DNA of 40,000 nt from Halococcus salifodinae. Lineage in GTDB: Archaea; Halobacteriota; Halobacteria; Halobacteriales; Halococcaceae. The position numbers and the translations under genes were made by a program. The notes under the pieces are model-generated. The model did no database searches, had not been told where the DNA came from, and worked only from the letters and a program-made list of their open reading frames with translations. Each line of letters starts with the position of its first letter. Position 1 is the first letter of the stretch. The stretch lies in NCBI RefSeq assembly GCF_052043865.1, contig NZ_JBQEMN010000005.1; one strand, given 5' to 3'. This document shows, one piece after another, positions 2,300-21,494 of the stretch.

Positions 2300-2301
2300 C
2301 G

Positions 2302-3132: not shown

Positions 3133-3133
3133 T

Positions 3134-6100
3134 TCACAAATCCTCCGTGACTCCGATGACATCCTGCCGCTTCCGTTCGTACTCGGTGTACTCGTTGAGT
3201 TGCTGGATTCGGTGTTCGAGGTCGATCCCAGTCGAATGCTCTTGATCCTGAAGTTCGTCGATGAGCGAGTCGAGTGCTTCGTATATGTCCCAGGCCCCCT
3301 GCTCGTGGCTGCTGCGAGCGAAGTCGTGCAGGCGTGCGACGAGCGTCGTTCCAGTCGCGTCGTCCATGCTCTGGAACTTCTCCACGTCCTCACCGAAGGA
3401 TGTGAGTTTTACTTCGCCAGGCGATTCGGTAAGCGTCTCGTGGGCGTCTTCGTAGCTCGACTTGATGGTGACGTCCATCGTGCCAGCGCAGGTGTAAAGC
3501 GTCTCGAACCACTCGACGAGGTCGTCGACCGTGTGACTACTGTCGTGCCACCGCTCGACCGGCTCTAAAGCCTCCCGGATATGGGATGCGTCTTGCTCGG
3601 CTGTGAGACGCTGTATTTCAGTCGCGTAGTCCGAGATGCGGCTGAATAGTGTCGATACATTGGTGTTGGCCTGATTGCGAGTCGAGCCGATCTTGTATGC
3701 GTCGGGCAGATCACCTGTATCGATCATCATCGCGTCGTCGACGTGGGCTTCGAAGTTGCCCGCGACCTCACGTCGTGCTTCTGCTAAGCGCTCGTAGTCG
3801 ACGACATTCGACTTGAGCAGGAAGAACCCTTCAATGAGATCGCTGATATCGCTCGAAGACGCGCCCAGGTTCGTGAACGCTTCCCCGAACGCGCTGTCGC
3901 GCTCGAACTCATCGACGATCGGCTTCCCGTACGATTGGTCGTGTTCGTAGTCCTCGAAAACGAGCTGTGTCGATAGGCTGTCCTTTTCGATCTCCGTCCC
4001 CCTCGCGGCGTTGATGAGAAAGATCTGCCCCAGAACTAGCGTCTTCTCGATGGTGAGTCCCTCGGGGAGGCAGTCTTCGACCTCCTCGCGCATATCTTGC
4101 TTGAACTGCGCAACATTGGTGTCTGCCCACGCGCGTAACTGGTCGAAGTTCGTGTCGGTGGTATCGAACGTCTCGAAGAGACCGTATTCGAGCATCGGAG
4201 TGTAGAGGTCTGCGTGTTCTGCCCCCCACTCAAGTTCGATGTCGATGTTCGCCTGACGCTGCTGGTCTCCCTGGATGGACACCGGGATGCTGTCGCCGCG
4301 AGCGTAGTAGATCGCGCTCGCAGAGCGCGTCGACGCGTTCGGATTCCCGAGACGGCTCGGGTCATGACCGCGTTCGAGCGTCTCTATGGCCCCGTCGTGT
4401 AGCGTGTCCGAACTCGGATATTCTTCGCCGCTGATCACCCAGTCTTGGAACTCTTGGAACTTGTGCTGGCGCTCACGCTCCTCTTCCGATAGTTCGGACT
4501 CGTCGGTGACATCGACCTCGTCGTCCTCTTCGTCCCCGCCTTCGTCGTCTTCGGGGCCATTGTCCTCGCCCTCTTGCTCGTCACCGTCGTCTTCCTCGTC
4601 GATCTCGTGTTCGGGCGCGGGCGGGTTCTTGATCTTGTCGAGAACGGCACTTCCTTTTCCCTTATCGAAGACAACGTAGTCATCTTTCGCGGGCGCTTCT
4701 CCACTGTTGGGGAGTTCGATACCGAAGGCATCGAAGACATCGGTCTTGACACCGATGCCGCCCTCGACGGGAACACCGTACCAGCGACTGACGTCTTGGT
4801 ATATCTGGTCGTACTTCATGTCGACCTCGAACGTGGGCGTGTCCACGAACGAGTTCGACTTCATCGCCTTGTAGGGTGGCCAGGTCGACTTCAGGCAGTG
4901 TTTCACGACCCGCAGCAAAAGCAGGCGGGGCGTCTTTCGGTTACTACCTTCGTCGTTTAGCTGGCGGTAGGCGATGTTGACGAACCGTTCGTTGAACGGA
5001 TACAGTCCGTCGAAGGACTCTTCGACGCCATCCGGAGTGCTTTGGCTTCCAGAGTGACGTTTGATAGCGTTGAGGTATGACCGCGTGAGTTCGACAGAGG
5101 CGTCGTCGTCGAGGAAGTAAGCCTCGCCGTTCTCGTTGGTCATCGTTAGATATCCCTTGGAACGGCCTTTCATGTACGTAGCCGCGTCCGAGCGAGTCAT
5201 CGCGTCGTCGATGTTGTCCTGTTCCCAACCGATCGTCCACCCGAGGACGATGTCGTAGTGGCTGCTGCTGAGGTCGAAGATGTGGTCGAGGAGTTGTTCT
5301 TTTAGGACACTGAACGTCGTGAGGTCCTCACAGATGAGCACCGGCCGAATGTCCTGCTCTTGGTACAACTGAGAGTATTCTTGGAGTTGTTCCTTGAAGT
5401 CTCCAACCAGGTTTCGAGAGAGGTACTCGTGGGCCTCGTTCTTGAGTACCGTATAGAGCAGATCTTTGTTCTCGGTGAGTTTGTCGCTGAAGCTCATCTG
5501 GAGCCGAAGGTCCCGGAAGTCGGAGCGAGTGAGGAGGTTGAAGTCAGGGTTCTCGTCACGAGACTCAAGAGCGTCCTGGTACTTCTGAATGTTCTTCGCG
5601 AAGATTTCACGAAGGTCGCTCTTGTTGTCTCGTTTGTTAGTGAGTTCTTGAACGTCTTGGTCTGTGAGGTGATTAGTTGACCAGATACCGCGCATATACT
5701 CGACGATGGCACTCGCAGCGTCGTTCGGGTCGAGATCGTCGATGTTCTGCACGTCGGGATCGACGTCTAGGGGTTCGGTGAGAACATCGATGATCTGGTC
5801 CATCCGAGTCTGGCTTCGAGACACGTGAAGTGCCACGTAGTCCTCGACACCGTTGTCGTCCTCTCCGTAGCCGTTGATCTGGTACTTCGTCCACTCACAG
5901 AGTTGGCTCTTTCCAGAACCGGGTTCCCCACGGACGATGAAGATTCGGTTTGGATCCTCAAGATTCGACGCCGTGATGGATTCAAGGATGTCGTTTTGCG
6001 TGACGAAGTCCCCTGAGACGCCCACTGGAGTGAGCGTATCGGCGTAGATCCGGTCGATGTCGACGTGAGTTTCCTTGAACTGCTCGGGGGTCTTCTTGGC

Positions 6101-6199
6101 TGTGTGGGCTTCCGAGGTGATGAAATGGTCGATCTCGTCGTCATCCCAGTAGCGGTCCATCTCGCCGGCGGTCGAGGGTTGTTGAACGCTGTTGTTCAT
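3134..6199 (-). CDS. Large P-loop NTPase (1021 aa), family unassigned
   Basis: Track ORF. ATG 6199 overlaps the upstream stop (ATGA). Walker A is IVRGEPGSGKSQLCEW and a Walker-B-like motif is RPVLICEDLT. There is a central D/E-rich linker. I recognise no other domain. Confidence 0.8.
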   Translation of the reverse strand: MNNSVQQPSTAGEMDRYWDDDEIDHFITSEAHTAKKTPEQFKETHVDIDRIYADTLTPVGVSGDFVTQNDILESITASNLEDPNRIFIVRGEPGSGKSQLCEWTKYQINGYGEDDNGVEDYVALHVSRSQTRMDQIIDVLTEPLDVDPDVQNIDDLDPNDAASAIVEYMRGIWSTNHLTDQDVQELTNKRDNKSDLREIFAKNIQKYQDALESRDENPDFNLLTRSDFRDLRLQMSFSDKLTENKDLLYTVLKNEAHEYLSRNLVGDFKEQLQEYSQLYQEQDIRPVLICEDLTTFSVLKEQLLDHIFDLSSSHYDIVLGWTIGWEQDNIDDAMTRSDAATYMKGRSKGYLTMTNENGEAYFLDDDASVELTRSYLNAIKRHSGSQSTPDGVEESFDGLYPFNERFVNIAYRQLNDEGSNRKTPRLLLLRVVKHCLKSTWPPYKAMKSNSFVDTPTFEVDMKYDQIYQDVSRWYGVPVEGGIGVKTDVFDAFGIELPNSGEAPAKDDYVVFDKGKGSAVLDKIKNPPAPEHEIDEEDDGDEQEGEDNGPEDDEGGDEEDDEVDVTDESELSEEERERQHKFQEFQDWVISGEEYPSSDTLHDGAIETLERGHDPSRLGNPNASTRSASAIYYARGDSIPVSIQGDQQRQANIDIELEWGAEHADLYTPMLEYGLFETFDTTDTNFDQLRAWADTNVAQFKQDMREEVEDCLPEGLTIEKTLVLGQIFLINAARGTEIEKDSLSTQLVFEDYEHDQSYGKPIVDEFERDSAFGEAFTNLGASSSDISDLIEGFFLLKSNVVDYERLAEARREVAGNFEAHVDDAMMIDTGDLPDAYKIGSTRNQANTNVSTLFSRISDYATEIQRLTAEQDASHIREALEPVERWHDSSHTVDDLVEWFETLYTCAGTMDVTIKSSYEDAHETLTESPGEVKLTSFGEDVEKFQSMDDATGTTLVARLHDFARSSHEQGAWDIYEALDSLIDELQDQEHSTGIDLEHRIQQLNEYTEYERKRQDVIGVTEDL

Positions 6200-7122
6200 T
6201 GTCGGGTCAGGAACTGGGTGAGGGGGTACTGATAGGCCGTTTCGTCCGGGCGCGAGTGGATCGAAACGCGCGTCGCGTCACGCCGGTTTCCGCGAACGTC
6301 GTCGTCGAGGTCCTCCGGTGGAATCTCGACCGCGTTCTGCGAGTCACCGGGATTCGACAGAGAAATTACACCGTCATCCTCCATATTCCGCAGCACGTCG
6401 GCGATCGTGGGGTGGACACGCGGAGTGCCTGCCCGCTCTTCATACACCGCGAAGAGGTTGTCGTTTATCCAATCGAGTGCTCGCCGGAACTCTCCATCCG
6501 TTACTTCCACGTCGTCGTAACTGGGTTCCTCGCTGGAGGTCGTCGGAGCGAGTACGAGAGCGTCGTATGCCAAAGCACGACAGGGGCTGAGGACGAGTTC
6601 GTCTTCCGTCTCAGTTAACAGCCCCAGTTGCTCACACAGCGTCACCCACATATCGATCTTCTCGTCGGTCCAACTGAAGGTGTAGTCTGTCTCGCGCTTC
6701 AGGATGGTACGCAAGTCATCTTGACTGCCACTCACAATCCTGTTTTCCTCAGTCAGCAGCGCACGGTAGACATCAGCGAAGTGCGTCTGTCGCCCCTCCT
6801 GTTGGTTGCAGTGATACAACAATCGCGCTTCGAACTGGAGTCCACCGAACTGAGACTCGTTGATGCGTTCGACCGTGCTCCTGATGTCCCCTGAGGGACT
6901 CTCAACGAGATCGACCGCGTTCAGGAACCGCACTGTATCCTCGACGTGATCGGATTCGATCCCGTTGTCAGTTGGACGCCCAAACTTACTCGCCAGTTCG
7001 TTGACGCTGGTTGCGCTCTGAATGGCGTTGTGGATATGCTTTAATTCCGGTGCTCGCACCGAGATGAACCCGGTGAGTAACTTGTCTGGTTTCGTCTTAG
7101 CCGATGTGTACGTTGTGCTCAT
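6196..7122 (-). CDS. Hypothetical protein (308 aa)
   Basis: Track ORF 6196..7239 trimmed to ATG 7122 (MSTTYTSAKTKPDKLL...). This start overlaps the stop of the upstream gene as ATGA (7119-7122). The composition is acidic. Confidence 0.7.
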   Translation of the reverse strand: MSTTYTSAKTKPDKLLTGFISVRAPELKHIHNAIQSATSVNELASKFGRPTDNGIESDHVEDTVRFLNAVDLVESPSGDIRSTVERINESQFGGLQFEARLLYHCNQQEGRQTHFADVYRALLTEENRIVSGSQDDLRTILKRETDYTFSWTDEKIDMWVTLCEQLGLLTETEDELVLSPCRALAYDALVLAPTTSSEEPSYDDVEVTDGEFRRALDWINDNLFAVYEERAGTPRVHPTIADVLRNMEDDGVISLSNPGDSQNAVEIPPEDLDDDVRGNRRDATRVSIHSRPDETAYQYPLTQFLTRQ

Positions 7123-7985
7123 TCGTTCTCCTGATGACGATAGCGGTAGTCGTCGAGTCGTTCTTCCTCGAATTCCACCAACTCGAGCATGTCTATCATT
7201 CGGTTGGCGACCTGCTGGGTCGGCCCGCGTTCGGTCCACGACCGGAGCGCTTCCCTGATACGCTCGGAGTAATCCTCGAGGACATTATCGACATCCTCGC
7301 GGATGAGATAGTACAGGGGACCCCAGACTGGACTATCAGCAGGAATTTGTGTGTAGTCGAATAGTTCCGGGATGGACCCCGCGTTTAACTCCGCCGCCTT
7401 GTGATGGGCAGAGATCTGATGGAAGTACAGGTTCTGAGTCGTGGACAATGGAAGGTCCGAATCGAGATTGTACTGTAGGTAGCGCTTCAGCAGCGCTTTA
7501 TGATCGACAACCGTACATTCGAACTCATCGATGAACGACTTCCCTGGTTTCTTCGTATATCTGGGCATCGTTGGCGTGCTCGTATCGGTGACAAGCAGGT
7601 AGGGGACCCCTGAAGGTCTGTCCCGTAGCAGTTGGCGAACGATGTCTTGATCGTCGAAGGTATGCTCCTCGTCCTGTAGCTCACCAGTCAGCATCTCCTG
7701 GCTGATGTAGTGAACGAGAGGGAACTCAACGTTGTCCACACCGTTCTCTCGCAGCGACTCGTTTGCGACCATGTCGTATTCGACGAGGCGCAATCCGTTG
7801 TCGTAGATTCCGGGGTGAGCAACCGTTCCAAGTTCGAACTCTGCCAGCAACGGCAACGTCCGAAGTTGCGCACGTGCTTGCGTTCCAGTCTTTGCGAGTT
7901 GCGGATCTCGCATCACGACAAACGAGTCTCGCGTGCCGATGAATTCCGCTATCGCGGGCGTCTCTGTGTTGGGTGGGTCCATCAT
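7119..7985 (-). CDS. Hypothetical protein (about 288 aa), first gene of the five-gene operon; weak PD-(D/E)xK-like spacing
   Basis: Track ORF 7119..8036 starts at a GTG. The first ATG pair is at 7985/7982 (MMDPPNTE...). The motif LLVTD ... VVDHK is only suggestive of a nuclease fold. The start codon is uncertain (7985 or 8036). Confidence 0.6.
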   Translation of the reverse strand: MMDPPNTETPAIAEFIGTRDSFVVMRDPQLAKTGTQARAQLRTLPLLAEFELGTVAHPGIYDNGLRLVEYDMVANESLRENGVDNVEFPLVHYISQEMLTGELQDEEHTFDDQDIVRQLLRDRPSGVPYLLVTDTSTPTMPRYTKKPGKSFIDEFECTVVDHKALLKRYLQYNLDSDLPLSTTQNLYFHQISAHHKAAELNAGSIPELFDYTQIPADSPVWGPLYYLIREDVDNVLEDYSERIREALRSWTERGPTQQVANRMIDMLELVEFEEERLDDYRYRHQENE

Positions 7986-8182
7986 CGTCTGGTGTGCTTG
8001 GGTTCGGCGTCGATGTGGGATGGACGCCGACTGCACGCATCCATTAGTCGTAGCCGTGGCTACGGAACGATACAGCCGTTTTAGGCCGCGTCGAACGGGA
8101 TGCGATCACATATCCTTCAGGGGCAGTTGGTTTGAACCTGTCGGAATTTTTTATTTTATGTTCGCACAGATGGCTCTCCTCG

Positions 8183-8208: not shown

Positions 8209-8424
8209 TAGCGTGCGAACTCTTGGCAGTACCATGAGAACAATCAAATAGTTGCCGACGGTGCAACAAACACGGGACAGTTGCGGTGATCTGGAACGAC
8301 AAAGCAGTATATCTGGGCTAATTGATCCATTTGCCACCAATCCGAATCTGATTCTATACAGATTTCACTCCCACTGTTGCGTTGAAGCGGAACAGTAACG
8401 ACCATCCGAAGGAGTAGCAAAAAC

Positions 8425-9078
8425 ATGCGCACCTATCTAGCGCCACTTGGTTTCGACAGTCGACGTGTAGTACGGCCAGTTTTAAGCGAAGGTCTTGACA
8501 CCGGCGACCACATCCTGTTGTTACAACCCGCTACCGGATCAGATCAAGGAGATAGCGCGCTCGAGGAGGTAGAGGACATCCTTACACAGGTCGTTCCCGA
8601 TCTCGACCCAGTAGCTGAAACCTTACCCTACTCGGATTTCGTAGAAACGACGCTACACTGTGCCGACCTCATACAGGCGTCTGACGGCGAGACAATTGTC
8701 ATTCTTGGTGGAGGTGCACGAGAATTACTTCTCCCTCTGACCATCGCGACGTTCACCGCTACAGATGATGTGGACACCATCCTTCAGATAGGAGATATCG
8801 ACAGCAGCGTTCGACGGCTCCCTCAGCTGAACCTCCGAGGGAACGTTTCAGACGCCGAGGCAGGGTTGCTAGCAGATCTAGGTATGCTGGATACGCCACT
8901 TTCCATCACCGAAATAGCAGACGGATTGGACAAATCAAAGAGCACGATAGCCCGCCATGTCAGTAGCCTTGAATCCGAGGGATTCGTCTCGGCCAGCAAG
9001 AACGGTCGGTTGAAGAATGTCTCGATAACCGACAGCGGGCGGGTATTCCTGAAAACGTGGCACCGACCGCAGATCTGA
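8425..9078 (+). CDS. Csa3-like regulator (CARF-like Rossmann N-domain plus C-terminal winged HTH)
   Basis: Track ORF with an ATG start. The N-terminus MRTYLAPLGFDSRRVVRPVL, then DHILLLQP, then IVILGGGARELLLPL, parallel the Csa3 layout. The C-terminal part LSITEIADGLDKSKSTIARHVSSLESEGFV is a wHTH. Confidence 0.6.
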   Translation: MRTYLAPLGFDSRRVVRPVLSEGLDTGDHILLLQPATGSDQGDSALEEVEDILTQVVPDLDPVAETLPYSDFVETTLHCADLIQASDGETIVILGGGARELLLPLTIATFTATDDVDTILQIGDIDSSVRRLPQLNLRGNVSDAEAGLLADLGMLDTPLSITEIADGLDKSKSTIARHVSSLESEGFVSASKNGRLKNVSITDSGRVFLKTWHRPQI

Positions 9079-9147: not shown

Positions 9148-10302
9148 TCATATTTCTTCCTGTATGAAATCGGCGTCGATCCTCGATCGCTCTTCGTCGA
9201 CTGCCGCATCGAGTACCCGGCTACACACAGAGAGAACCTGTCGGATGTTCCCCTGTGATCGCTGGTGTATTATTGAGAGACTCTCTTCGGTGAATGGATC
9301 AACACCCCCTGTTCCATTTGTCCGTGCGGGAGCAATATACGTTGACACCAATTTGTTGATATGGTCGTCGGTTAGTGGTCGCAGGGCCACTTCTTGCCCA
9401 ATACGCTCAGAGAACGCGTGGTACTCGCTCATTACGTCCTGCCAGACCTCCGGTGCACACCCAAAGAGCATACAGAGACCATGACTGTTCTGGTCCATCA
9501 AGTGACGGATGCTGTTCAGCGTCGCTTGTTCGGCTTTCGCGCTGAGTCGAGCAATGCTCTCGAACTCATCAACGAAAACGAAAACACCTGTATAACCGAG
9601 ATCAAGCAGGAGGTTCTTCAGCGCCGTGAACGCTCGGACACTGGTAGTATCGTCGTCGAGTGCACTATGGATCTCCATTTCTTTGCGCTGCTCATAGCGA
9701 ATGCCCTCGGCAGTGAGCCACTGCCACGCGTAGAGGTTCGTATCCTCGTACACCATATGTACGATCGCACGAGCGAAGTCAGCGAACTTCGTCACGTTGT
9801 TGAGTTGCTGGACAGCCTCCGGAACCAGTTCCGATAGTAATACTTCACCGTCATCGATTAGTTGCTCTACCGTGCTTGCGTCCGTTGGATTGCAATCGGT
9901 GGTGTTGCGGGCCACCTGAGCGAGGTACTCGTAAGCGAGCGTCTGAATGCGGTCGAACCCGAGATCGTAGACGAACTCGTGATAGATATCGCGGAAACCT
10001 TCGCCCGGCTGGGCGACGTAGCCGACGACGACATCCTCACGGTCGCGCACGAGCGAGCGTGTGTACTTGAGCGTGTGTGACTTCCCATTTCCGTACTTTG
10101 CGGTGACAACGAGATGCTTCGACTTCCCGGTCGAGAGCATCGTCGAGACGGTGTCGCTGATGGCTCTCGTGGCGTGCTCCTGCCCACAGTAGAGTGCTGG
10201 GTCGTTATCCGGAACTGGACTGTATGGGAAGGGATTCTCCTCTAAGCCGAATTGGGAGTAGTCGCGCTGTTCGTCCGTAATGCTGAATGTATCGTTGGTC
10301 AT
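9148..10302 (-). CDS. AAA+/ORC-like P-loop ATPase (384 aa)
   Basis: Track ORF. Walker A is VVTAKYGNGKSHTL and Walker B is GVFVFVDEFE. ATG 10302 overlaps the upstream stop (ATGA, 10299-10302). Confidence 0.8.
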   Translation of the reverse strand: MTNDTFSITDEQRDYSQFGLEENPFPYSPVPDNDPALYCGQEHATRAISDTVSTMLSTGKSKHLVVTAKYGNGKSHTLKYTRSLVRDREDVVVGYVAQPGEGFRDIYHEFVYDLGFDRIQTLAYEYLAQVARNTTDCNPTDASTVEQLIDDGEVLLSELVPEAVQQLNNVTKFADFARAIVHMVYEDTNLYAWQWLTAEGIRYEQRKEMEIHSALDDDTTSVRAFTALKNLLLDLGYTGVFVFVDEFESIARLSAKAEQATLNSIRHLMDQNSHGLCMLFGCAPEVWQDVMSEYHAFSERIGQEVALRPLTDDHINKLVSTYIAPARTNGTGGVDPFTEESLSIIHQRSQGNIRQVLSVCSRVLDAAVDEERSRIDADFIQEEI

Positions 10303-11201
10303 GTCTCTTTCTCCTGAGTAAAGGTGAGGTTGCGGTCGTAGACCGCGAGGTAGTAGTATTGTTTGCCGAACTGTTCGATACCGGCCATCACGCGCTCGGT
10401 GGATTGGTCGGTCGTGACGAGACCCTCCTTACTTCCGAGGTCGATCTCCTTGATGCCGAGCTGGGCCTCTTTCGCCCCCGTATCCATCGGCGCTCCCGAG
10501 AGTTCGATATGGCCAACGTTCTGCTGAGCAAGTCGTCTCAGCGCCTCGTCGAAGACACTTCGGGGGCAGCCATGACGTTCACAGAAGTGCTCTCGGAGCA
10601 ACGGGATCGAGAGGTATCGTTGTCGGAGGTCGACGCCTGCCGTCTCTTCGAGATCGTCGTACACCGCGAGCAGCGCGAACGGGAAATTCGACGGTACTAC
10701 GTTCCGCTCGACGGAGTAGTAGCCCCCCGTAAACGAATTCCGCTGAACAGTACCGAGGCGTTCAGCCCAGTCGCCCACGACCTCGACACTCGTTTGGTTG
10801 TACGAATGGTTGGTGAATTCTTCAAGCGATTCGAGTTCTTCGAGCACTGCTTCAAGCGAGGCAGGGGCAACGTTGTCGAGTGCTTCCAGAAACGCACTGT
10901 AGTGTGGGCTTTGCGTGGCGAGCACGTCACTCACCTTGGACCACTCCTCAGCACGAACCGCCTCAAGAAATCGATCGCCAATATGCGTACTCTCATACGT
11001 TTCGTCCTCATCCTCTTGCTGTTCCGATCCGAGCAGACCGATCCGCAGTGTCTCGAGAGTAGTTTCACGGGCGCGGCGGTGGGTCACATCAAGTGCCGAT
11101 TTGATGTCCTCTAGCGTCCGTGGGCCATCCTCGCAGATATGGGACGTTTCCACGAGTCGCGCCAGCGTTACAGGTCGTATGGTTGGGCGTTCGTCGCTCA
11201 T
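10299..11201 (-). CDS. Hypothetical protein (about 300 aa), possible N-terminal wHTH
   Basis: Track ORF 10299..11207 starts at a GTG. ATG 11201 (MSDERPTIRPVTLARLVE...) lies 2 nt after the TGT stop (11204-11206). It is coupled on both sides. Confidence 0.7.
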   Translation of the reverse strand: MSDERPTIRPVTLARLVETSHICEDGPRTLEDIKSALDVTHRRARETTLETLRIGLLGSEQQEDEDETYESTHIGDRFLEAVRAEEWSKVSDVLATQSPHYSAFLEALDNVAPASLEAVLEELESLEEFTNHSYNQTSVEVVGDWAERLGTVQRNSFTGGYYSVERNVVPSNFPFALLAVYDDLEETAGVDLRQRYLSIPLLREHFCERHGCPRSVFDEALRRLAQQNVGHIELSGAPMDTGAKEAQLGIKEIDLGSKEGLVTTDQSTERVMAGIEQFGKQYYYLAVYDRNLTFTQEKET

Positions 11202-11203
11202 TA

Positions 11204-12238
11204 TCACGTGAGTCTCCTGACCTGCTGTTTCGCCTGTCGGTACGCCCGTTTGGTGACCTCGTTACCCTGAAACCGTAGGTCGAGGTACGCCTCCACGTCC
11301 TCGTTGGCAGCAACCATGTAGCGGAAGCGTCGGAGTTCCATCGTGAGCGCCCAGAGATTGTGCTTCGTCAGGGCATTACGATCCTCACGCAACTCCGTAA
11401 ACGGCGTGTCACGACAGACTGGGCACGAACACGGGAGGTACGAGAGTTCGGTGACGTGTTTGAGTTCCTGACCACCAAACCCTGGAACCAGATAATTCCG
11501 GTTTCCAGCGCTCCGGATAAATGCCGAGGAGTCGAAACTATCGACCCCCAGGTACAGCAGTAGGGGTTGGTATACTAACCCCCCCAATCCGTACACATGC
11601 AGGTGCTTGTCGGTCGCCCGTCTGGCCGCAAGTATTATACTTGTCACCTTTTTGTAATCTGTTCTGACCGGAACGAGACTCCCGAGCGCGTACCCGTCGA
11701 AATCGCCGTTACGCTCTAAGTACCGGACGTTGTTCTGTACCGTCTCCGGATCGAGACCATGGATACTGGCGAACAGTAATTCCTCACCGTCATGTTCGTC
11801 ACTCGCTTCAACGGCATACTCCGCACTATCGGAGATGCGCCGCTGGTTTTCCCTGTCTCGGTTCTCTCGGGAGATGGGCCGATCTACCGTCCCGAGGATG
11901 TCCGCGCCGATCTGACGCTGTGTTTCGAGCGTCCGTGCTGGGGTAGTGTCGACGTCTCCCGCTTGGAAGTCGAACCCCCCACTGTCGGCGAAGATGACGG
12001 TTTCCTCTGGGATGTCCATCTCTTCACGGAGAGTAGCCCCGTTGAGGAGGCGATTCCACTGTGGATCACGTTGTCTGATCGCTCGTGCATTCACCATCGC
12101 TGTCCGAAGGTCCGGAATCGCATCGGCGTACGCTGGCGTGTTGTCGGAGGATCGTTTGCCGATGTTCCGAACCGGGAACAGGACGGGCGTCTTAATGCAC
12201 CCGTGTGGCGTGTTGAGCGTTCGTTGTCTGTACAGCAT
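11204..12238 (-). CDS. Minimal TGT-family transglycosylase (ArcTGT-like catalytic core only, 344 aa)
   Basis: Track ORF 11204..12295 starts at a TTG, trimmed here to ATG 12238 (MLYRQRTLNTPHGCIKTPVLFPV). Motifs: FADSGGFD, HVYGLGG, LGVDSFDSSAF, and the zinc motif CSCPVCR...KHN. No C-terminal PUA, C1 or C2 region is present. Confidence 0.85.
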   Translation of the reverse strand: MLYRQRTLNTPHGCIKTPVLFPVRNIGKRSSDNTPAYADAIPDLRTAMVNARAIRQRDPQWNRLLNGATLREEMDIPEETVIFADSGGFDFQAGDVDTTPARTLETQRQIGADILGTVDRPISRENRDRENQRRISDSAEYAVEASDEHDGEELLFASIHGLDPETVQNNVRYLERNGDFDGYALGSLVPVRTDYKKVTSIILAARRATDKHLHVYGLGGLVYQPLLLYLGVDSFDSSAFIRSAGNRNYLVPGFGGQELKHVTELSYLPCSCPVCRDTPFTELREDRNALTKHNLWALTMELRRFRYMVAANEDVEAYLDLRFQGNEVTKRAYRQAKQQVRRLT

Positions 12239-12355: not shown

Positions 12356-12640
12356 ATGCACTCCGCGGTCGACGAAGTAGTCTGTCCGAAGCGGTCGCTG
12401 GAGATCTTAGACTATCTCAGCGAACACGACGAATCGAACTTCAGTACGATTGAGGATGCTGTGCCGACATCGAGCGATGTAGTGACTGAGCGATTGGAAA
12501 CGCTCCAAGAGTACGGGTTAGTTGAGCGCGAAGAGCGGAGTTCACGCAACGTCCGGTATTCGCTCACTCAGGATGGGGAAACGTTTCTCACCCATCTCGA
12601 AGAAGTAGATGAGTTTCTCCAAAACTCCCGCGGCGACTAG
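12356..12640 (+). CDS. Small winged-HTH transcriptional regulator (94 aa)
   Basis: Track ORF 12281..12640 starts at a GTG, trimmed here to ATG 12356 (MHSAVDEVVCPKRSLEILDYLSEHDESNFSTIEDAV...VRYSLTQDGETFL). It is divergent from the TGT operon. Confidence 0.7.
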   Translation: MHSAVDEVVCPKRSLEILDYLSEHDESNFSTIEDAVPTSSDVVTERLETLQEYGLVEREERSSRNVRYSLTQDGETFLTHLEEVDEFLQNSRGD

Positions 12641-13344
12641 TCGTACGAACCGAGTCCGGACTGGCGTGTTGGTTCCGTCGTACAGTACTCGACGACTTCC
12701 GTGAAAGAATCGATCGTTGTACCCTCCGCCCTGTGTGCGGCAAATTGCTTTAGATACTGTCCTTTTAGTCCAATAACGGTACTTCCCTGTTCTTTCGCCT
12801 CGGCCGTTCGTGCGGGGATGGAAATGACATTTGGCCGTTGCTCGGCGTCGGCTTCACGATTGAACAGCACGACCATCGTCGAGTCGGAGAATGTATCAAG
12901 CAGTCGGGAGAGGTCGAGTGCCTCGTAGTAGTCACTCCCGAGTGCAAGGAAGACGAGATCGTAGGCGGGGTCGTCGTCTAGTCGATTGAGCAGGTCGCTC
13001 TGGATCTCTAGTTCCGAGGATCGCTCGTGGACGCTCTCAGTATCGTAGTCTTGGAACGTCACTTCGTAGGGCGGGAGTTCGGTCGCCTCACCAACGAAAC
13101 CGAATCCTGCACTGATATAATAGCGATCAACGGTGTCTCCGGACTCCCGAAGACGATCAACGGCTACGTCGATATACTGCTGTTGACGGCCAGTATAGAG
13201 GTCGTGAGCGGAATAGGTCGGCGTCCGTTCCCGCTCACGGAGTTCGGGGAGGGAGAAATCGTCGATGGTCTCGGCGTCAAACGAGTCGAACCATTCGGGC
13301 GATTGCTTCGATCCCGAACACTGGTCGACGACGAGTACACGCAT
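12637..13344 (-). CDS. Hypothetical protein (235 aa) coupled to the DpdA-like gene; N-terminal VLVVDQCSGSK motif
   Basis: Track ORF 12637..13350 starts at a TTG. ATG 13344 lies 2 nt after the upstream stop (13347-13349). I recognise no family with confidence. Confidence 0.7.
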   Translation of the reverse strand: MRVLVVDQCSGSKQSPEWFDSFDAETIDDFSLPELRERERTPTYSAHDLYTGRQQQYIDVAVDRLRESGDTVDRYYISAGFGFVGEATELPPYEVTFQDYDTESVHERSSELEIQSDLLNRLDDDPAYDLVFLALGSDYYEALDLSRLLDTFSDSTMVVLFNREADAEQRPNVISIPARTAEAKEQGSTVIGLKGQYLKQFAAHRAEGTTIDSFTEVVEYCTTEPTRQSGLGSYD

Positions 13345-13346
13345 CC

Positions 13347-15554
13347 TCAAAACTCAGTAAGACCCGACTGCTGAAGATGTTTCGGGAGGAACGATTCTTG
13401 GTAGCCCAGACGACTGAGCACGGCGCTGCGTAGTTCGCTAGGTTCCTCGTGGACGTGGACTGTGCAGTCTGTCTCTTCGAGGGCCGAGCGAACCTTCTCA
13501 GGAAGCGTCCAATCGCTTCCATCGACGTAGAGGTCCTGATACCGCTCACAGACGGTCGCAAGCTCGTCCGCCATCCAATCCATATCGAGTGAGATCGTCG
13601 TCGGTGGATCGTCCCACCACTCTTGGACCCCATCGGCGGTGGCGACGCCGATCTCTGCGACGGGCAGGTCATGAACGTGCGTCCAGAGCGTTTCGTGTTC
13701 ATCCCGGAGATATTCTTCGCCAGTATCGCTCCGTGAAAGCGCACTGCTCCCACGGGTGATGACCAGCACCTTCGGCAAGGCACGCTCGAACTGATCGTAG
13801 AAGCGTTGCGTGTTGTGGAACCCACGTCGGCGGTTGCGATTGTTCCCACGCCAGATGGCGACTTCAATGCCATGTTCACGACAAATAGTACAGTCACACT
13901 CCCTCCAGGGTTCGGCCCGGAGGACGCGCTCGTAGGAATCAAGATTGTTCCCGTCTCCGACGAACTCGGCATACGTTTCGAGGAGTACCCAGAGTTGGTC
14001 AAACGTTCCGACCGTCCCAGTGTTTGTCTCGCGGCGCTCGATAGTGTCGATCTTCGTCGGGGCGCGACCCTCGATTACCTCAGTGGCCGTCTTGATGAGA
14101 TTCTTGTACGCAGTGAACGAAAGGGGATTCTCGGAGCCGTCGTCGCGGAGGAGTTTGATGAGTCGAGTCCGGAAGTCATCACTGAAATTGGCTTTGAGTT
14201 CACGTCCGTATTCGTAGTGATCACGGAAGGAACTCGTGATAGGCCGAAGCGTCGTCTCGTCGAACTGGGCGTCGTGCCGGTGCTCACGGATATACATGGG
14301 GAGATTGGCAAGGGCTGTGAGCGCAGTATCCTGCCATGAACGGAGGGCGTCGACGATCGACTCGTCCTTATCGAACGCCCGGAGCGCAATAAGTAGTTCC
14401 TGAGCGCGAAGTGCCCACTCGATACTGGTTTCGAGGTCTGCACTGTACGGCGGGTATCGTACTCGAATCGCATCGAACCGTCGAGTGCTGTCGAGGTGAT
14501 AGTTATCGCCACCGGTCCACGCCGCACGGAGCATACTGGCGCTGTCGAAACTCGCCATGCCAGCACGGCCGATCGTATCGAACGCGCCGGTCTTGGCGAA
14601 CCCGAACACGTGGGTATCGATTCGCGTACGATACGTTCGCTCGTGATGTTTGACCGCGTTCCCGACCGCAGAGACTGTGCGTTTGACGGCATCTTCGCTG
14701 CTTCCGGCAACTCCACCGATACCGATGTACTGGTACCCCAAGTCAAGCACGTCCTCAACGGCTCTCTCGTAGGAGTCAGGGTCCCACCCTTGGATGGCGA
14801 CCATTAGTCGGAAGGAATAGTCACCATCTTGGTAAAAATCCTGCATCTCGGCGGCGTTGTCGAGAGTCAACTCGTACCGGAAGGCCATATCGTCATCTCG
14901 ATACACTGCCCGAGGATCATCTTTGAGTCGCGTGAGAACGTCTTGTTTCTCTCCCTCGAAATCAGCAGCGCGGAAGCTGTCGACTTCGCTATCAGCAGTA
15001 TCTCGGAGTGTAGAGTCGTACTCAGCAACGTAGTCTGGCCACTCGTCCGGCCAAGTGTCGGTCATCACGTCAGTATCACTCTCGGCCAACCATTCCGGGA
15101 GATCACTGGTGGTAAACTCGTCGCCGAGGGCACGATCATCAAGATAGAGTCGGCTGGTATGTCCGGAGCCTAGGACGAGATGATCAATTGTGACCCCGAC
15201 ATCAACCTCAAGCGTCTCGTAGAACTCCAGCATGTCCCAATTCCCGTACGGTGGAAAAGGGAGTTGCTTGTAACCCCATGCCCCACAGTCACTGATCGTG
15301 GGGAGCCACTCCGGGAGATCGAGGCGTGGATCATCGTAAACACCGTGTGAAGTGATACGGTCGAACTTTGTGGGCGAGTCCTCAACTTGTTCGCGAGAAA
15401 TGAGGACACCATCGATCGGTATCGACTCGCGATCGAAGACATCCCAGATGTATGCGAGGTCACGGTCTGCAGGAGAAAGGTCCGAGTGCTCATCATGGAC
15501 GAAATCGTACGCCGCGTCTACGTGGTCGTCCCACTCAGGGACATAGAAGCGCAC
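13347..15554 (-). CDS. DpdA-like TGT-superfamily transglycosylase, long form (735 aa)
   Basis: Track ORF. GTG is the only available start, because an in-frame stop lies at 15564-15566. The N-terminus is MRFYVPEWDDHVDAAYDF. Other motifs: ISDCGAWGY (Asp position equivalent to DSGGFQ), HVFGFAKTG...MASFDSASMLR, and the zinc motif CDCTICREHG...GFHN. There is an extra C-terminal region of about 130 aa. Confidence 0.75.
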   Translation of the reverse strand: MRFYVPEWDDHVDAAYDFVHDEHSDLSPADRDLAYIWDVFDRESIPIDGVLISREQVEDSPTKFDRITSHGVYDDPRLDLPEWLPTISDCGAWGYKQLPFPPYGNWDMLEFYETLEVDVGVTIDHLVLGSGHTSRLYLDDRALGDEFTTSDLPEWLAESDTDVMTDTWPDEWPDYVAEYDSTLRDTADSEVDSFRAADFEGEKQDVLTRLKDDPRAVYRDDDMAFRYELTLDNAAEMQDFYQDGDYSFRLMVAIQGWDPDSYERAVEDVLDLGYQYIGIGGVAGSSEDAVKRTVSAVGNAVKHHERTYRTRIDTHVFGFAKTGAFDTIGRAGMASFDSASMLRAAWTGGDNYHLDSTRRFDAIRVRYPPYSADLETSIEWALRAQELLIALRAFDKDESIVDALRSWQDTALTALANLPMYIREHRHDAQFDETTLRPITSSFRDHYEYGRELKANFSDDFRTRLIKLLRDDGSENPLSFTAYKNLIKTATEVIEGRAPTKIDTIERRETNTGTVGTFDQLWVLLETYAEFVGDGNNLDSYERVLRAEPWRECDCTICREHGIEVAIWRGNNRNRRRGFHNTQRFYDQFERALPKVLVITRGSSALSRSDTGEEYLRDEHETLWTHVHDLPVAEIGVATADGVQEWWDDPPTTISLDMDWMADELATVCERYQDLYVDGSDWTLPEKVRSALEETDCTVHVHEEPSELRSAVLSRLGYQESFLPKHLQQSGLTEF

Positions 15555-15992: not shown

Positions 15993-16703
15993 TTATGTGA
16001 GTGGATCGGAGATGCCAGCCTTTTCGAACGCTTCCTCCCGCTCGATACATGCAGGACATTCTCCACAGGGGTCTCCATTCTCGTCGTTGTAGCAACTGAA
16101 TGTGACTTTCCAGTCGACCTCCAAGCGCTCGCCAAGTTGCAGCACTTCCGGCTTCGAGTGGTTGATGATCGGTGTATTGATTCGAATCATGTGTTGGTCA
16201 GTCGACTTGTTGATCGCATTCTCAGCGACTTCAAGAAACGTTGGACGACAGTCCGGGTAGTCCTCTCCATCGTTTTGTTGGGCACCGTGATAAAGAACAA
16301 TATCTTCACCAGTCTCGGAATTGTGTTCGGCGATCGCAGCAGCAGTTGTGAGGAAATGGAGGTTTCGTTGTGGAACGTATCCGACGCTGTGGTCATCGTC
16401 GGTCGTGTGCTCGCGGTCGTACTCTTTGTCCTCGATTGTTCCTTCGGCGAATTCGCTGAATACAGCGCGATAATTGCAGGTGTAGAGAGGTATATCGAGA
16501 CCATCTGCCTGCTTCTCTGCGTTGGCACGTTCGATGTCTTCGGTTTGCTGGCCATAGTCGATATGGATAGCTGCGACGCTATCGTGCTCTTCAGACGCTT
16601 TCTTCAAACAAACGGCCGAGTCGATACCACCTGAGAGGAGAACGAATGCCTTCGATTCGCTGGAATTGTTGTCGTGCATTGTCGGAGTGTGTCTGTTATT
16701 CAT
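15993..16703 (-). CDS. queC: 7-cyano-7-deazaguanine (preQ0) synthase QueC
   Basis: Track ORF. The motif AFVLLSGGIDSAVC is a PP-loop, and there is a C-terminal Cys cluster FSCY...CGECPACIERE. At about 236 aa it has no fused amidotransferase domain. Confidence 0.9.
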   Translation of the reverse strand: MNNRHTPTMHDNNSSESKAFVLLSGGIDSAVCLKKASEEHDSVAAIHIDYGQQTEDIERANAEKQADGLDIPLYTCNYRAVFSEFAEGTIEDKEYDREHTTDDDHSVGYVPQRNLHFLTTAAAIAEHNSETGEDIVLYHGAQQNDGEDYPDCRPTFLEVAENAINKSTDQHMIRINTPIINHSKPEVLQLGERLEVDWKVTFSCYNDENGDPCGECPACIEREEAFEKAGISDPLT

Positions 16704-16773
16704 TCACCGTGCGCGAACTGGTCGAAATAGACGACCGGCATGCATTTTTCACCCGATTATTTACCATTCTGTC

Positions 16774-17553: not shown

Positions 17554-17554
17554 A

Positions 17555-18022
17555 CTATCGTGAGGGGTGCGTCCCCAGTTCGCTTGTCTCACGCACCTCA
17601 ACATCCACTTCATTAACCGATGCAGGTAATCGGTCTCGTAACCTGTTTTCGAGAATAATACCCATCACCTCAGCCGTGGGTGGATGGTCGAGAACGACAG
17701 TGGCATCGCTATCGCCGCTTTGTTCGAACGCGTCGATGAGTGGGTCACCACGTTCGAGCAGAAATCGGTGATCCCACTCCTCAACGATATCGGTCACAGT
17801 ACCTTTGTCGACGACCCACCCCTCTTCTCGGAGTGTTCCAGTAACCGTGACAGCAATTTTGTAGTTGTGTCCATGAGGGCGGCTACACTTTCCCTCGTGA
17901 TGGAGAATCCGATGTCCAGTGCTAATACGGATCGGACGGTCTCGTCCAATCGAAAGCACCCGTGATTCATCTGAGAGTGTTACGTCACGTAGTCCATCTT
18001 CCTTGGCTACACTCTGGGGCAT
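17555..18022 (-). CDS. queD: 6-carboxy-5,6,7,8-tetrahydropterin synthase QueD
   Basis: Track ORF with ATG 18022. Contains the CSRPHGHNY motif (CxxxHGH). Confidence 0.9.
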   Translation of the reverse strand: MPQSVAKEDGLRDVTLSDESRVLSIGRDRPIRISTGHRILHHEGKCSRPHGHNYKIAVTVTGTLREEGWVVDKGTVTDIVEEWDHRFLLERGDPLIDAFEQSGDSDATVVLDHPPTAEVMGIILENRLRDRLPASVNEVDVEVRETSELGTHPSR

Positions 18023-20646: not shown

Positions 20647-20653
20647 ATAGAGG

Positions 20654-21477: not shown

Positions 21478-21494
21478 TTCCACGTCCGCTGTCT

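What the first reader, a model, noticed from the sequence alone, without database searches (positions are those of the whole stretch)
9148..12238. Second, minimal TGT translationally coupled to an unknown 300-aa protein and an AAA+ ATPase
The 344-aa protein keeps all ArcTGT catalytic hallmarks: TPHG..TPV, ADSGGFD, VDSFDSSAF and CSCPVC...H. It ends right after the zinc site, so it lacks the C-terminal tRNA-binding C1/C2/PUA region found in canonical ArcTGT.

Its stop is 2 nt from the next start, and that gene overlaps the ATPase start (ATGA). This arrangement suggests a stoichiometric complex. In the Salmonella Dpd system, base insertion by DpdA is reported to need ATP hydrolysis by DpdB. An ORC-like AAA+ ATPase (YGNGKSHTL / VFVFVDEFE) could be a non-homologous replacement for DpdB. 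Two distinct TGTs in one island is unusual. It could mean two substrates, two sequence contexts, or a writer and an eraser/exchanger.
Basis: partly seen in the sequence, partly recalled or inferred. Interest (0 to 1): 0.75.

Follow-up and report, generated by a model that had tools for sequence, protein, structure and literature searches.

The report
Second transglycosylase with ATPase helper module
A salt-loving archaeon's DNA-modification defence island carries a second base-swapping enzyme welded into one operon with a DNA-binding protein and an ATP-driven motor, a trio that always travels with the known enzyme DpdA and probably supplies the ATP-dependent step that an unrelated protein (DpdB) supplies in bacteria.

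Summary
On the minus strand, three coupled genes encode a 344-aa ArcTGT-like catalytic core (TGT2), a 300-aa protein and a 384-aa BrxD-family AAA+ ATPase.

The window is from Halococcus salifodinae. The island belongs to the haloarchaeal Dpd-like class that a 2025 preprint named BRIGADE. It holds queD/E/C, a 735-aa DpdA, a DpdC-like protein, the triplet, a Csa3-like regulator, a DpdH/BrxC-like ATPase and a DEAD-box helicase.

The triplet is not a curiosity of this genome. It keeps the same order in 42 of 42 genome loci found through the 300-aa protein. It sits next to nearly every archaeal-type DpdA found in metagenomes, and it recurs in low-GC non-halophiles. Bacterial-type DpdA loci lack it, and no DpdB is present here.

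TGT2's catalytic Asp residues and Zn site are invariant. The 300-aa protein models as three tandem winged helices.

Best reading: the winged-helix protein plus the ATPase replace DpdB, and they drive DNA base exchange by TGT2 alongside DpdA. Why two transglycosylases are needed is unresolved.

This is a new variant of a known kind, and nothing here is biochemically tested.

The parts
11204..12238 (-). TGT2: 344-aa ArcTGT-derived transglycosylase, catalytic TIM-barrel plus Zn site only
   Evidence: Pfam TGT E 5.6e-29. NCBIfam TgtA 147 bits (cutoff 350) and DpdA 30 bits. Aligns to 1IQ8 with the catalytic Asp residues and Zn ligands kept. Foldseek top hit is ArcTGT, TMq 0.74-0.75. D85, S86, G87, G88, D119, H160, D233, D236, C270, C272, C275 and H293 are invariant, including in low-GC relatives of 38-51% identity. 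pI 6.2, the least acidic protein of the island.
10299..11201 (-). p300: 300-aa protein with three tandem winged helices and a conserved C-terminal segment that models poorly; no Pfam family
   Evidence: No Pfam, NCBIfam or PADLOC hit. AF2 model has pLDDT 74: three wHTH units, with residues 236-300 at low confidence although conserved. Foldseek finds multi-wHTH proteins: RPC62, SelB-C and SspB 6lb9 (TMq 0.36). The family has 105 representatives at 50% clustering among 1.84 billion proteins.
9148..10302 (-). BrxD-family (ORC/Cdc6-type) AAA+ ATPase, 384 aa
   Evidence: Pfam BrxC_BrxD 62 bits, AAA_22. PADLOC BrxD 8.5e-14 and SngB 3.7e-10. NCBIfam BrxD 50 bits, below the equivalog cutoff of 350. 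Walker A GNGKS and Walker B VDEFE. The most conserved protein of the locus, median 74% identity.
12356..12640 (+). Small divergent winged-helix protein (about 94 aa), probable local regulator of the triplet operon
   Evidence: Translation. Homologues occupy the same position in many loci, including the low-GC L046/L047.
12637..13350 (-). DpdC-like / DUF6884 protein (237 aa); fused to the C-terminus of DpdA in most other genera
   Evidence: PADLOC DpdC 4.9e-8 and Pfam DUF6884 1.7e-4. About 967-aa DpdA-DUF6884 fusions in L001, L002, L005 and others.
13347..15554 (-). DpdA, 735 aa: bacterial-type DNA transglycosylase core with two large insertions and a C-terminal extension
   Evidence: NCBIfam DpdA 263 bits (cutoff 200), matched in three stretches. 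PADLOC DpdA 1e-70. D89, D124, D337, C553, C555, C558 and H580 are invariant in the family. Only 25% identical to TGT2 over 106 residues.
15993..18022 (-). queC (15993-16703), queE (16774-17613), queD (17555-18022): preQ0 synthesis genes
   Evidence: NCBIfam QueC 130 bits. Translations. QueC, QueE and QueD homologues flank the module in most loci.
8425..9078 (+). Csa3/CARF-wHTH regulator (the 'CasRa-like' regulator of BRIGADE type II)
   Evidence: Pfam Csa3_N plus HTH; PADLOC CARF3 9e-85. Preprint description.
1..8036 (-). Restriction-side module: p305 (7119-8036), p347 (6196-7239; likely start at 7122), DpdH/BrxC-like ATPase of 1021 aa (3134-6199), a protein of about 275 aa (2302-3132), and a DEAD-box helicase with many Zn ribbons that runs off the window (1-2299)
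   Evidence: NCBIfam DpdH 45 bits. Pfam DEAD 84 bits on the partial helicase. This module occurs in only 7-9 of 43 loci, so it is variable.

Best explanation
The triplet is the ATP-dependent half of the DNA-modification ('writer') module of an archaeal Dpd-type (BRIGADE) 7-deazaguanine modification-restriction island.

Proposed mechanism:
1. QueC/D/E make preQ0.
2. The 300-aa tandem winged-helix protein binds DNA.
3. The BrxD-family AAA+ ATPase uses ATP to load the complex or open the duplex. This is the job that the unrelated ParB-like ATPase DpdB does for DpdA in Salmonella.
4. TGT2, a catalytically intact offshoot of the archaeal tRNA enzyme ArcTGT that lost its tRNA-binding domains, exchanges guanine for preQ0 in DNA alongside DpdA.
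5. DpdC-like then converts the inserted base to the amide form.

Shown here: gene anatomy, translational coupling, conservation of the active site, and obligate co-inheritance with DpdA and the que genes across distant lineages.

Inferred: DNA as the substrate, physical complex formation, the ATPase's role, and the division of labour between the two transglycosylases.
For: 1. Conserved unit. TGT2, p300 and the ATPase are in the same order in 42 of 42 genome loci from about 25 haloarchaeal genera, on chromosomes and plasmids. The unit is also present in contigs of 31-48% GC from non-halophiles.

2. Reciprocal linkage with DpdA. DpdA lies within 10 kb in 38 of the 40 genome loci... more exactly in 38 of 43 loci compared (42 plus the window), and two of the five without it are short contigs. 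Starting instead from DpdA, every archaeal-type locus with enough flank carries the triplet. The arrangement varies: downstream on the same strand, inverted, or divergent. Linkage that survives rearrangement argues for a shared function.

3. DpdB replacement. No DpdB hit in the island. DpdA loci of only 28-31% identity (bacterial type) have no triplet. Published work shows that DpdA needs DpdB's ATPase activity (PMC10164549). One lineage (L130/L131) has p300-like, AAA+ and DpdA with no TGT2.

4. The writer side is constant and the restriction side varies. It can be a PLD nuclease, a UvrD-PDDEXK protein, or the DpdH plus helicase module.

5. TGT2's catalytic and Zn residues are invariant down to 38% identity. 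It is the least acidic protein of a halophile island, which fits nucleic-acid binding. A preQ0-type transporter (Vut_1) sits beside it in Halorubrum loci.

6. In two distant lineages, the same operon adds a protein of about 575 aa that is OGG/HhH-GPD DNA-glycosylase-like and TFIIB-like. This points to DNA as the substrate.

7. There is a precedent for the layout 'tripartite wHTH + ORC/Cdc6-type ATPase + DNA-modifying enzyme': SspB/SspC/SspD and type 4 BREX (PMC12839542).
Against: - There is no biochemical or genetic evidence. 7-Deazaguanine has not been shown in the DNA of any of these archaea.
- Nothing explains why two apparently active transglycosylases are needed.
- The ArcTGT catalytic domain alone could in principle still act on tRNA.
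- p300 has no sequence match to SspB, DUF4007 or BrxA. Its fold match to SspB is weak (TMq 0.36). No nuclease motif is conserved in it.
- Three loci (L033, L035, L041) show no DpdA within 10 kb. So the 'works alongside DpdA' part may not be universal, and conversely TGT2 may be the only writer there.
- The L130/L131 case rests on two short contigs and weak scores (32-42 bits).
Confidence: 0.55

Rival explanations
1. The triplet is a reader or effector, not a writer. TGT2 uses its deazaguanine/guanine pocket to flip and inspect bases. It would then either signal to the nuclease/helicase modules or itself damage foreign DNA, by excising bases or forming covalent enzyme-DNA adducts. The winged-helix protein and the ATPase would scan the DNA. 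This covers the reader's 'eraser/exchanger' idea.
For: BrxC/BrxD-type ATPases are proposed sensing or scaffold units in BREX (PMC12839542). DNA glycosylases that attack deazaguanine-modified phage DNA exist (bioRxiv 10.1101/2025.10.29.685425), and haloviruses carry such bases (PMC6884629). An OGG-like glycosylase shares the operon in L128 and L132. DpdA plus DpdC-like already look sufficient as a writer.
Against: The triplet stays constant while the restriction modules vary. It always sits with the que genes and DpdA, and next to a preQ0-type transporter in some loci. With preQ0 present, an active TGT would modify foreign DNA rather than destroy it. No DpdB-type helper would then remain for DpdA.
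Confidence: 0.17
2. TGT2 is a non-writing structural partner of DpdA, analogous to QTRT2 in the eukaryotic QTRT1/QTRT2 heterodimer. In this reading it recruits the ATPase and the winged-helix protein to DpdA, and DpdA does all the chemistry.
For: DpdA and TGT2 are almost always co-inherited. TGT enzymes work as dimers, and eukaryotes use a paralogue pair (discussed in PMC10164549). TGT2 is very strongly conserved at 72% median identity with no indels, as expected for a hub with several partners.
Against: Every catalytic, base-binding and Zn residue of TGT2 is invariant over deep divergence, unlike QTRT2. Three loci have no DpdA nearby. The L130/L131 lineage couples the helper pair to DpdA without any TGT2.
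Confidence: 0.13
3. TGT2 still acts on RNA. It would be an island-borne minimal ArcTGT that modifies host or viral tRNA, or another RNA, with preQ0, and the ATPase and winged-helix protein would be unrelated neighbours or regulators.
For: Its closest sequence and fold relative is the tRNA enzyme ArcTGT. From my own recall, not checked here: the PUA domain of ArcTGT was reported as dispensable for activity.
Against: It scores far below the TgtA equivalog cutoff (147 against 350 bits). Its distribution is patchy and plasmid- or island-borne. It is translationally coupled to the two partners in every locus. It is linked to DpdA and to defence modules rather than to translation genes. In two lineages it sits in an operon with an OGG-like DNA glycosylase.
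Confidence: 0.05

Closest known systems
Bacterial Dpd system, modification half: DpdA + DpdB + DpdC (Salmonella Montevideo; PMC10164549)
   Same: The preQ0 synthesis genes, a true DpdA (263 bits against a cutoff of 200) and a DpdC-like protein lie next to a variable restriction module that includes a DpdH-like ATPase. An ATPase is genetically tied to the transglycosylase.
   Different: There is no ParB-like DpdB. In its place are a BrxD-family AAA+ ATPase, a tandem winged-helix protein and a second, ArcTGT-derived transglycosylase. DpdA carries large insertions and is usually fused to DpdC-like.
BRIGADE systems of halophilic archaea (bioRxiv 10.1101/2025.09.15.676423)
   Same: This island matches the description: a haloarchaeon, a 7-deazaguanine gene cluster, DpdH/BrxC-like ATPase, a Zn-rich DEAD-box helicase, and a CasRa/Csa3-like regulator (type II). 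Other loci carry PLD or DNA2-like nucleases (type I).
   Different: That preprint classifies the systems by their YprA helicase. Its text and held supplements never mention a TGT, DpdA, a BrxD-like ATPase or the 300-aa protein. The triplet also occurs outside halophiles, whereas BRIGADE was reported only in halophiles.
ArcTGT (TgtA), the archaeal tRNA G15 preQ0 transglycosylase
   Same: It is the closest relative by sequence (1IQ8, E 2e-21) and by fold (TMq 0.75). The catalytic Asp pair, the D130 equivalent and the CxCxxC...H Zn site are the same.
   Different: TGT2 has no C1/C2/PUA tRNA-binding domains. It scores 147 bits against the equivalog cutoff of 350. An invariant His replaces Gln169. 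It is island-borne and sits in an operon with an ATPase.
SspB-SspC-SspD / type 4 BREX (DUF4007 + BrxC-like ATPase + PAPS reductase) and the BRC system with TGT (PMC12839542)
   Same: The logic is the same: a multi-(w)HTH DNA-binding protein plus an ORC/Cdc6-type AAA+ ATPase encoded with the enzyme that chemically marks self DNA. BRC even uses a TGT.
   Different: The chemistry is base exchange, not phosphorothioation. p300 has no sequence match to DUF4007/SspB/BrxA. The ATPase is BrxD-like and stand-alone, not BrxC-like. The window has no PglZ, HerA/FtsK, GNAT or STAND NTPase.
BrxD of type 2 BREX (Pgl)
   Same: Same Pfam family (PF10923), about the same size, a stand-alone AAA+ with no extra domains.

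Membership tests
ArcTGT / TgtA (TIGR00432) | TGT TIM-barrel with catalytic Asp95/Asp249 equivalents and a CxCxxC...H zinc site | tested here: met
   Alignment to 1IQ8. D85, D236, C270, C272, C275 and H293 are invariant. Foldseek TMq 0.74-0.75.
ArcTGT / TgtA (TIGR00432) | C-terminal C1, C2/C3 and PUA tRNA-binding domains; score at or above the equivalog cutoff | tested here: not met
   The protein ends at residue 344, which aligns to about residue 345 of the 582-aa 1IQ8. It scores 147 bits against a cutoff of 350.
DpdA (NF041059), for TGT2 | Score at or above the DpdA equivalog cutoff | tested here: not met
   TGT2 scores 30 bits against a cutoff of 200. The neighbouring 735-aa protein scores 263 bits and is the true DpdA.
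DpdB (ParB-like ATPase of Dpd) | Homology to DpdB in any protein of the island | tested here: not met
   The ten island proteins scanned give no DpdB hit in PADLOC or NCBIfam. The ATPase is an AAA+ of the BrxC_BrxD family, so any equivalence to DpdB is functional only.
DpdB (ParB-like ATPase of Dpd) | ATP hydrolysis required for base insertion by the transglycosylase | not testable with these tools
   This needs an ATPase assay and a [14C]guanine or preQ0 exchange assay.
BrxD (BREX type 2) | Membership of Pfam PF10923 with Walker A and Walker B motifs | tested here: met
   62 bits against a cutoff of 22. GNGKS and VDEFE motifs.
BrxD (BREX type 2) | NCBIfam equivalog score, and a BREX type 2 context (BrxHI, PglW/X/Y/Z) | tested here: not met
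   50 bits against a cutoff of 350. No BREX core genes among the island proteins.
SspB / DUF4007 / BrxA-like DNA-binding proteins | Tripartite HTH/wHTH architecture | tested here: inconclusive
   The AF2 model (pLDDT 74) shows three wHTH units. SspB 6lb9 has the best TM among the hits, but only 0.36.
SspB / DUF4007 / BrxA-like DNA-binding proteins | Sequence membership of the family | tested here: not met
   None of 42 family members hits DUF4007, SspB or BrxA in Pfam or PADLOC at E <= 1. A profile search of PDB sequences finds nothing.
BRIGADE (preprint definition) | Halophilic archaeon; 7-deazaguanine cluster; DpdH/BrxC-like ATPase; CasRa-like regulator (type II) | tested here: met
   Halococcus salifodinae. 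queC/D/E, DpdA, a DpdH-like ATPase and a Csa3/CARF regulator are present.
BRIGADE (preprint definition) | YprA-family helicase with the OB-CON-DUF1998 array | tested here: inconclusive
   The helicase at 1-2299 is a DEAD-box protein with many CxxC pairs, but it is cut by the window edge before any DUF1998 region.
BRC system (HerA/FtsK-centred, with TGT) | HerA/FtsK translocase (universal in BRC), PglZ and DUF6079 | tested here: not met
   None is found among the window's island proteins. A HerA-like gene with two TGTs does occur in the unrelated locus L121.

The most novel reading that the evidence does not exclude
TGT2, p300 and the AAA+ ATPase form a self-contained, ATP-driven DNA base-exchange machine that evolved from the tRNA enzyme ArcTGT independently of the DpdA lineage. 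It would be a further, cellular and archaeal lineage of DNA transglycosylase. It would be able to write 7-deazaguanine into DNA on its own, as the Halorubrum/Halopenitus loci without a nearby DpdA suggest. Where both enzymes are present, it and DpdA would mark different strands, motifs or bases.
Probability: 0.35. Interest if true: 0.8.

Novelty: new variant of a known kind. Interest (0 to 1): 0.62.

Why it matters
It is not understood why inserting a 7-deazaguanine into double-stranded DNA costs ATP. Only the Salmonella DpdA/DpdB pair has been studied.

These archaeal islands appear to solve the same problem with unrelated parts: an AAA+ ATPase and a tandem winged-helix protein. They also add a second transglycosylase recruited from the tRNA-modification enzyme. 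This gives an independent system for asking what the ATPase does (loading, DNA opening or recycling). It is also a natural experiment on how a tRNA enzyme is retargeted to DNA.

It further predicts that many haloarchaea carry 7-deazaguanines in their genomic DNA. These include genetically tractable Haloferax and Haloarcula strains and the host of virus HVTV-1. I found no report of such a modification in the searchable literature. The prediction bears on virus-host conflicts in hypersaline systems, where the viruses use the same modification.

Tried and rejected
- **SspB/DUF4007/BrxA membership of p300.** Tested by Pfam and PADLOC scans of 42 family members and by a PDB profile search. There is no sequence support. 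I keep it only as an architectural analogy.
- **Viral origin.** The p300 profile finds nothing in 2.9 million viral contigs. TGT2 has only remote matches (24-26% identity) in jumbo phages of bacteria.
- **Membership of the published BRC (HerA + TGT) system.** Rejected, because the window has no HerA, PglZ or DUF6079.
- **TGT2 as a DpdA-subfamily member.** Rejected on score (30 bits) and on only 25% local identity to the island's DpdA.
- **Modelling the complex.** Not possible, because only single window proteins can be submitted and the genes are in different frames.
- **tRNA genes as island borders.** None in the window.


Full report
**What is in the sequence.** The window comes from Halococcus salifodinae: the 300-aa protein is 100% identical to an NCBI protein of that species. 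Everything relevant lies on the minus strand. The gene order is:
- queD (17555-18022), queE (16774-17613), queC (15993-16703);
- a 735-aa protein that passes the NCBIfam DpdA equivalog cutoff (263 against 200 bits, matched in three stretches because of two large insertions), at 13347-15554;
- a 237-aa DpdC-like/DUF6884 protein (12637-13350);
- a small winged-helix gene on the opposite strand (12356-12640);
- a Csa3/CARF-wHTH regulator on the plus strand (8425-9078);
- a further coupled minus-strand operon: p305, p347, a 1021-aa DpdH/BrxC-like ATPase, a protein of about 275 aa, and a DEAD-box helicase rich in CxxC pairs that runs off the window start.

GC drops to 0.49 at 17-19 kb and jumps to 0.62 beyond 19 kb, which marks the island edge.

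**Checking the observation.** It holds in every detail.
- TGT2 (12238->11204, 344 aa) stops at TGA. Two bases later the 300-aa gene starts at 11201.
- The stop of the 300-aa gene overlaps the ATPase start as ATGA at 10302-10299.
- TGT2 matches Pfam TGT end to end. It aligns with residues 89-345 of P. horikoshii ArcTGT, keeping D95, S96, F99, D130, D249 and the CxCxxC...H zinc site.
- It ends where the ArcTGT catalytic domain ends, so the C1/C2/PUA tRNA-binding domains are missing.
- Its AlphaFold model (pLDDT 70) finds ArcTGT first (TMq 0.74-0.75) and bacterial TGTs next.
- By family scores it is ArcTGT-like but not an orthologue: TgtA 147 bits against a cutoff of 350, ArcS 50, bacterial Tgt 40, DpdA 30.
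- It shares only 25% identity over 106 residues with the island's own DpdA.
- The ATPase belongs to Pfam BrxC_BrxD (62 bits) and has clear Walker A and B motifs. This family is classed as ORC/Cdc6-type AAA+ (PMC12839542).

**The 300-aa protein.** It has no hit in Pfam, NCBIfam or PADLOC.
- An exhaustive profile search of 1.84 billion cluster representatives finds only 105 relatives.
- The AlphaFold model (pLDDT 74) shows three tandem winged helices. These are followed by a 65-residue C-terminal segment that is strongly conserved but modelled with low confidence.
- Foldseek returns multi-winged-helix proteins: RPC62, the SelB C-terminus, and SspB of the Ssp phosphorothioation system with the best TM-score, though only 0.36.
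- None of 42 diverse family members hits DUF4007, SspB or BrxA at the sequence level. A PDB profile search also finds nothing.
- No nuclease-like motif is conserved. Across the deep alignment only P10 and C207 are invariant.

I therefore call it a new tandem winged-helix family. It is probably a DNA-binding adaptor that resembles SspB/BrxA in architecture only.

**Is the triplet a unit?** Yes.
- A scan of one genome per GTDB species with the p300 profile gave 42 loci, all Halobacteria, from about 25 genera, on chromosomes and plasmids.
- In all of them TGT2, p300 and the ATPase are adjacent in the same order and orientation wherever sequence is present.
- Median identity to the window is 74% for the ATPase, 72% for TGT2, 60% for p300, 55% for DpdA and 47% for DpdC-like. 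So the triplet's two enzymes are the most constrained proteins of the island. The TGT2 family is almost always exactly 344 aa.
- More distant p300 relatives from contigs of 31-48% GC (not halophiles, judging by protein composition) are again flanked by a TGT2 and a BrxD-like ATPase.
- In two such lineages (L128, L132) the order is instead ATPase-TGT2-p300. A conserved fourth gene follows, encoding a protein of about 575 aa with an OGG/HhH-GPD glycosylase-like region and a TFIIB-like C-terminus.

**Linkage with DpdA.**
- DpdA lies within 10 kb in 38 of the 43 loci compared (42 plus the window). It is either a 735-aa protein followed by DpdC-like, or a fusion of about 967 aa.
- Two of the five exceptions are short contigs.
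- The other three (L033, L035, L041; Halorubrum and Halopenitus) read queC-queE-queD, a Vut_1/YhhQ-type transporter, then the triplet, with no DpdA in the flanks.
- The reverse test started from DpdA in metagenomes. Every locus with an archaeal-type DpdA (43% identity or more) and a few kilobases of flank carries the triplet. It can be downstream on the same strand, inverted, or separated by insertions. Only L075, with 2.2 kb of flank, is unclear.
- Loci with DpdA of 28-31% identity (bacterial type) have no triplet.
- Low-GC loci again pair the triplet with a DpdA that is divergent (L046/47), downstream (L049) or on the other strand (L128).

Linkage that survives this many rearrangements argues that the four genes work together.

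**Writer side or restriction side?** The neighbours that vary are the restriction-type genes:
- a PLD nuclease in 11 loci;
- a UvrD-PDDEXK helicase-nuclease in others;
- the Csa3, p305, p347, DpdH-like and helicase module in 7-9 loci.

The que genes, DpdA(-DpdC) and the triplet are constant. That places the triplet with the modification genes.

The island contains no DpdB. In Salmonella, DpdA cannot insert preQ0 without ATP hydrolysis by the ParB-like DpdB (PMC10164549). The triplet supplies an ATPase and a DNA-binding protein exactly where DpdB is missing.

In one lineage (L130/L131) a p300-like protein and an AAA+ ATPase directly precede a DpdA (327 bits), with no second TGT. The upstream 336-aa protein is not a TGT. 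This supports the view that the winged-helix/ATPase pair is a general helper for DNA transglycosylases. The evidence for this lineage is thin: two short contigs and weak scores.

**Is TGT2 active, and on what?**
- D85-S86-G87-G88, D119, H160-G161, G217-G220, D233, S234, D236, S237 and C270/C272/C275/H293 are invariant, including in relatives of 38-51% identity. This is what purifying selection on catalysis looks like.
- The DpdA family likewise keeps its Asp and Zn residues. Both enzymes therefore look competent.
- TGT2 has pI 6.2 and net charge -3, in an island whose other proteins have pI 4.3-5.3 and net charges of -10 to -132. That fits direct nucleic-acid binding.
- An invariant His160 aligns with ArcTGT Gln169. 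Salmonella DpdA is reported to read the Watson-Crick edge with Asp130 and His181. Whether these positions are equivalent is my inference, and the island's own DpdA has Gln there.
- DNA as substrate is inferred from context: defence island, DpdA, ATPase plus wHTH partners, and an OGG-like glycosylase in the operon of two lineages. It is not shown.

**What is known.**
- Hutinet et al. (PMC6884629) noted a 'DpdA homolog' in Haloarcula vallismortis contig AOLQ01000002, which is my locus L019, and said nothing more about it.
- A 2025 preprint (10.1101/2025.09.15.676423) named the haloarchaeal Dpd-like islands BRIGADE, on the basis of their YprA helicases. This window fits type II (Csa3/CasRa-like regulator, DpdH/BrxC-like ATPase). 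The preprint's text and held supplements never mention a TGT, DpdA, a BrxD-like ATPase or the 300-aa protein. Its Figure S1 is not available to me.
- The BREX survey (PMC12839542) describes a different, HerA-centred 'BRC' system. It combines a TGT with DUF4007 and a BrxC-like ATPase, and the authors speculate that an NTPase there replaces DpdB. It also equates SspB/SspC/SspD with DUF4007, a BrxC-like ATPase and a PAPS reductase. That gives a precedent for the layout 'multi-wHTH + ORC-type ATPase + DNA-marking enzyme'.
- The known DNA-transglycosylase subfamilies (bDpdA, DpdA1-4; PMC10516641) do not include an ArcTGT-derived cellular enzyme like TGT2.

**Verdict.** The best-supported reading (about 0.55) is that the triplet is the ATP-dependent part of the writer module of an archaeal Dpd/BRIGADE island. 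The wHTH protein and the AAA+ ATPase would stand in for DpdB, and TGT2 would be a second active transglycosylase working with DpdA.

Rival readings remain open: reader/effector (0.17), non-writing partner of DpdA (0.13), and RNA enzyme (0.05).

This is a new variant of a known kind of system. It matters mainly because it offers an independent route to the unexplained ATP requirement of DNA base exchange, and because it predicts 7-deazaguanine in the DNA of many haloarchaea.

Noticed in passing
window 12356-12640 (+): A small (about 94 aa) winged-helix protein is transcribed divergently from the triplet. Homologues sit in the same place in many haloarchaeal loci and in the 31% GC loci L046/L047. 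It is probably a dedicated regulator of the triplet operon.
   Followed up: partly
window 13347-15554 (-), and L005, L010, L026, L029: The archaeal DpdA carries two large insertions (roughly residues 130-220 and 380-540) and a conserved C-terminal extension of about 150 aa of unknown fold. In most genera it is also fused to the DpdC-like/DUF6884 domain, giving about 967 aa. The 31% GC relative L046 lacks both insertions.
   Followed up: partly
L128 4315-6027 (-); L132 3291-5036 (+): In two distant low-GC lineages the operon order is ATPase-TGT2-p300, followed by a conserved protein of about 575 aa. It combines an OGG/HhH-GPD glycosylase-like region (GPKT...VDVNV motif), a Cys cluster and a TFIIB-like C-terminus. 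The two copies are 34% identical over their full length.
   Followed up: partly
L130 201-3293; L131 2-1838: This lineage has a non-TGT 336-aa protein, then p300-like, then a 376-aa AAA+ ATPase, then DpdA (327 bits), with no second TGT. Both contigs are short.
   Followed up: partly
L121 9110-18419: A different two-TGT island (GC 0.45): a 745-aa DpdA with an N-terminal extension, a HerA-like ATPase, unknown proteins of 397, 611 and 291 aa, and a second small DpdA-like TGT (336 aa, 183 bits). It is flanked by SF1 and UvrD helicases. It may be related to the published BRC system.
   Followed up: no
L033, L035, L041 at about 8060-8720 (+): A Vut_1/YhhQ-type (queuosine-precursor) transporter gene sits between queD and TGT2 in the Halorubrum/Halopenitus loci. 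These are the loci that show no DpdA within 10 kb.
   Followed up: partly
L042 6719-7776; L043 5873-8867 and 9911-10899: The Halospeciosus flavus plasmid carries two copies of the module. They have split (frameshifted) TGT2, DpdA and p300 reading frames, which suggests decay of duplicated copies.
   Followed up: no
window 15993-16703 (-): The window's QueC is only about 33% identical to the QueC of the other loci, whereas QueD and QueE are about 65% identical. This suggests that a different QueC type was swapped in. No folE is present in the window, unlike L001/L002.
   Followed up: no
window 6196-8036 and 3134-7239 (-): The restriction-side genes are also translationally coupled. The p305 stop overlaps the p347 start as ATGA at 7122-7119, if p347 starts at MSTTY as its homologues do. 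p347 and the DpdH-like gene overlap by 4 nt at 6199-6196.
   Followed up: partly
window 19000-22400: GC rises from 0.49 to 0.62 at about 19 kb, and a serine recombinase (Pfam Resolvase) lies at 21495-22394. This is consistent with the island's border. The window contains no tRNA gene.
   Followed up: partly
window 28329-31278 (-): An XPB-type helicase (29716-31278) sits next to a DUF790 protein (28329-29681). I recall this as the archaeal XPB-Bax1 helicase-nuclease pair. It is unrelated to the finding.
   Followed up: no
window 10299-10500 (-), p300 residues 236-300: The C-terminal 65 residues of p300 (ELSGAPMDTGAK...GKQYYYLAV) are among its most conserved, yet they model at pLDDT below 50. 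This may be a segment that folds only on binding a partner.
   Followed up: no
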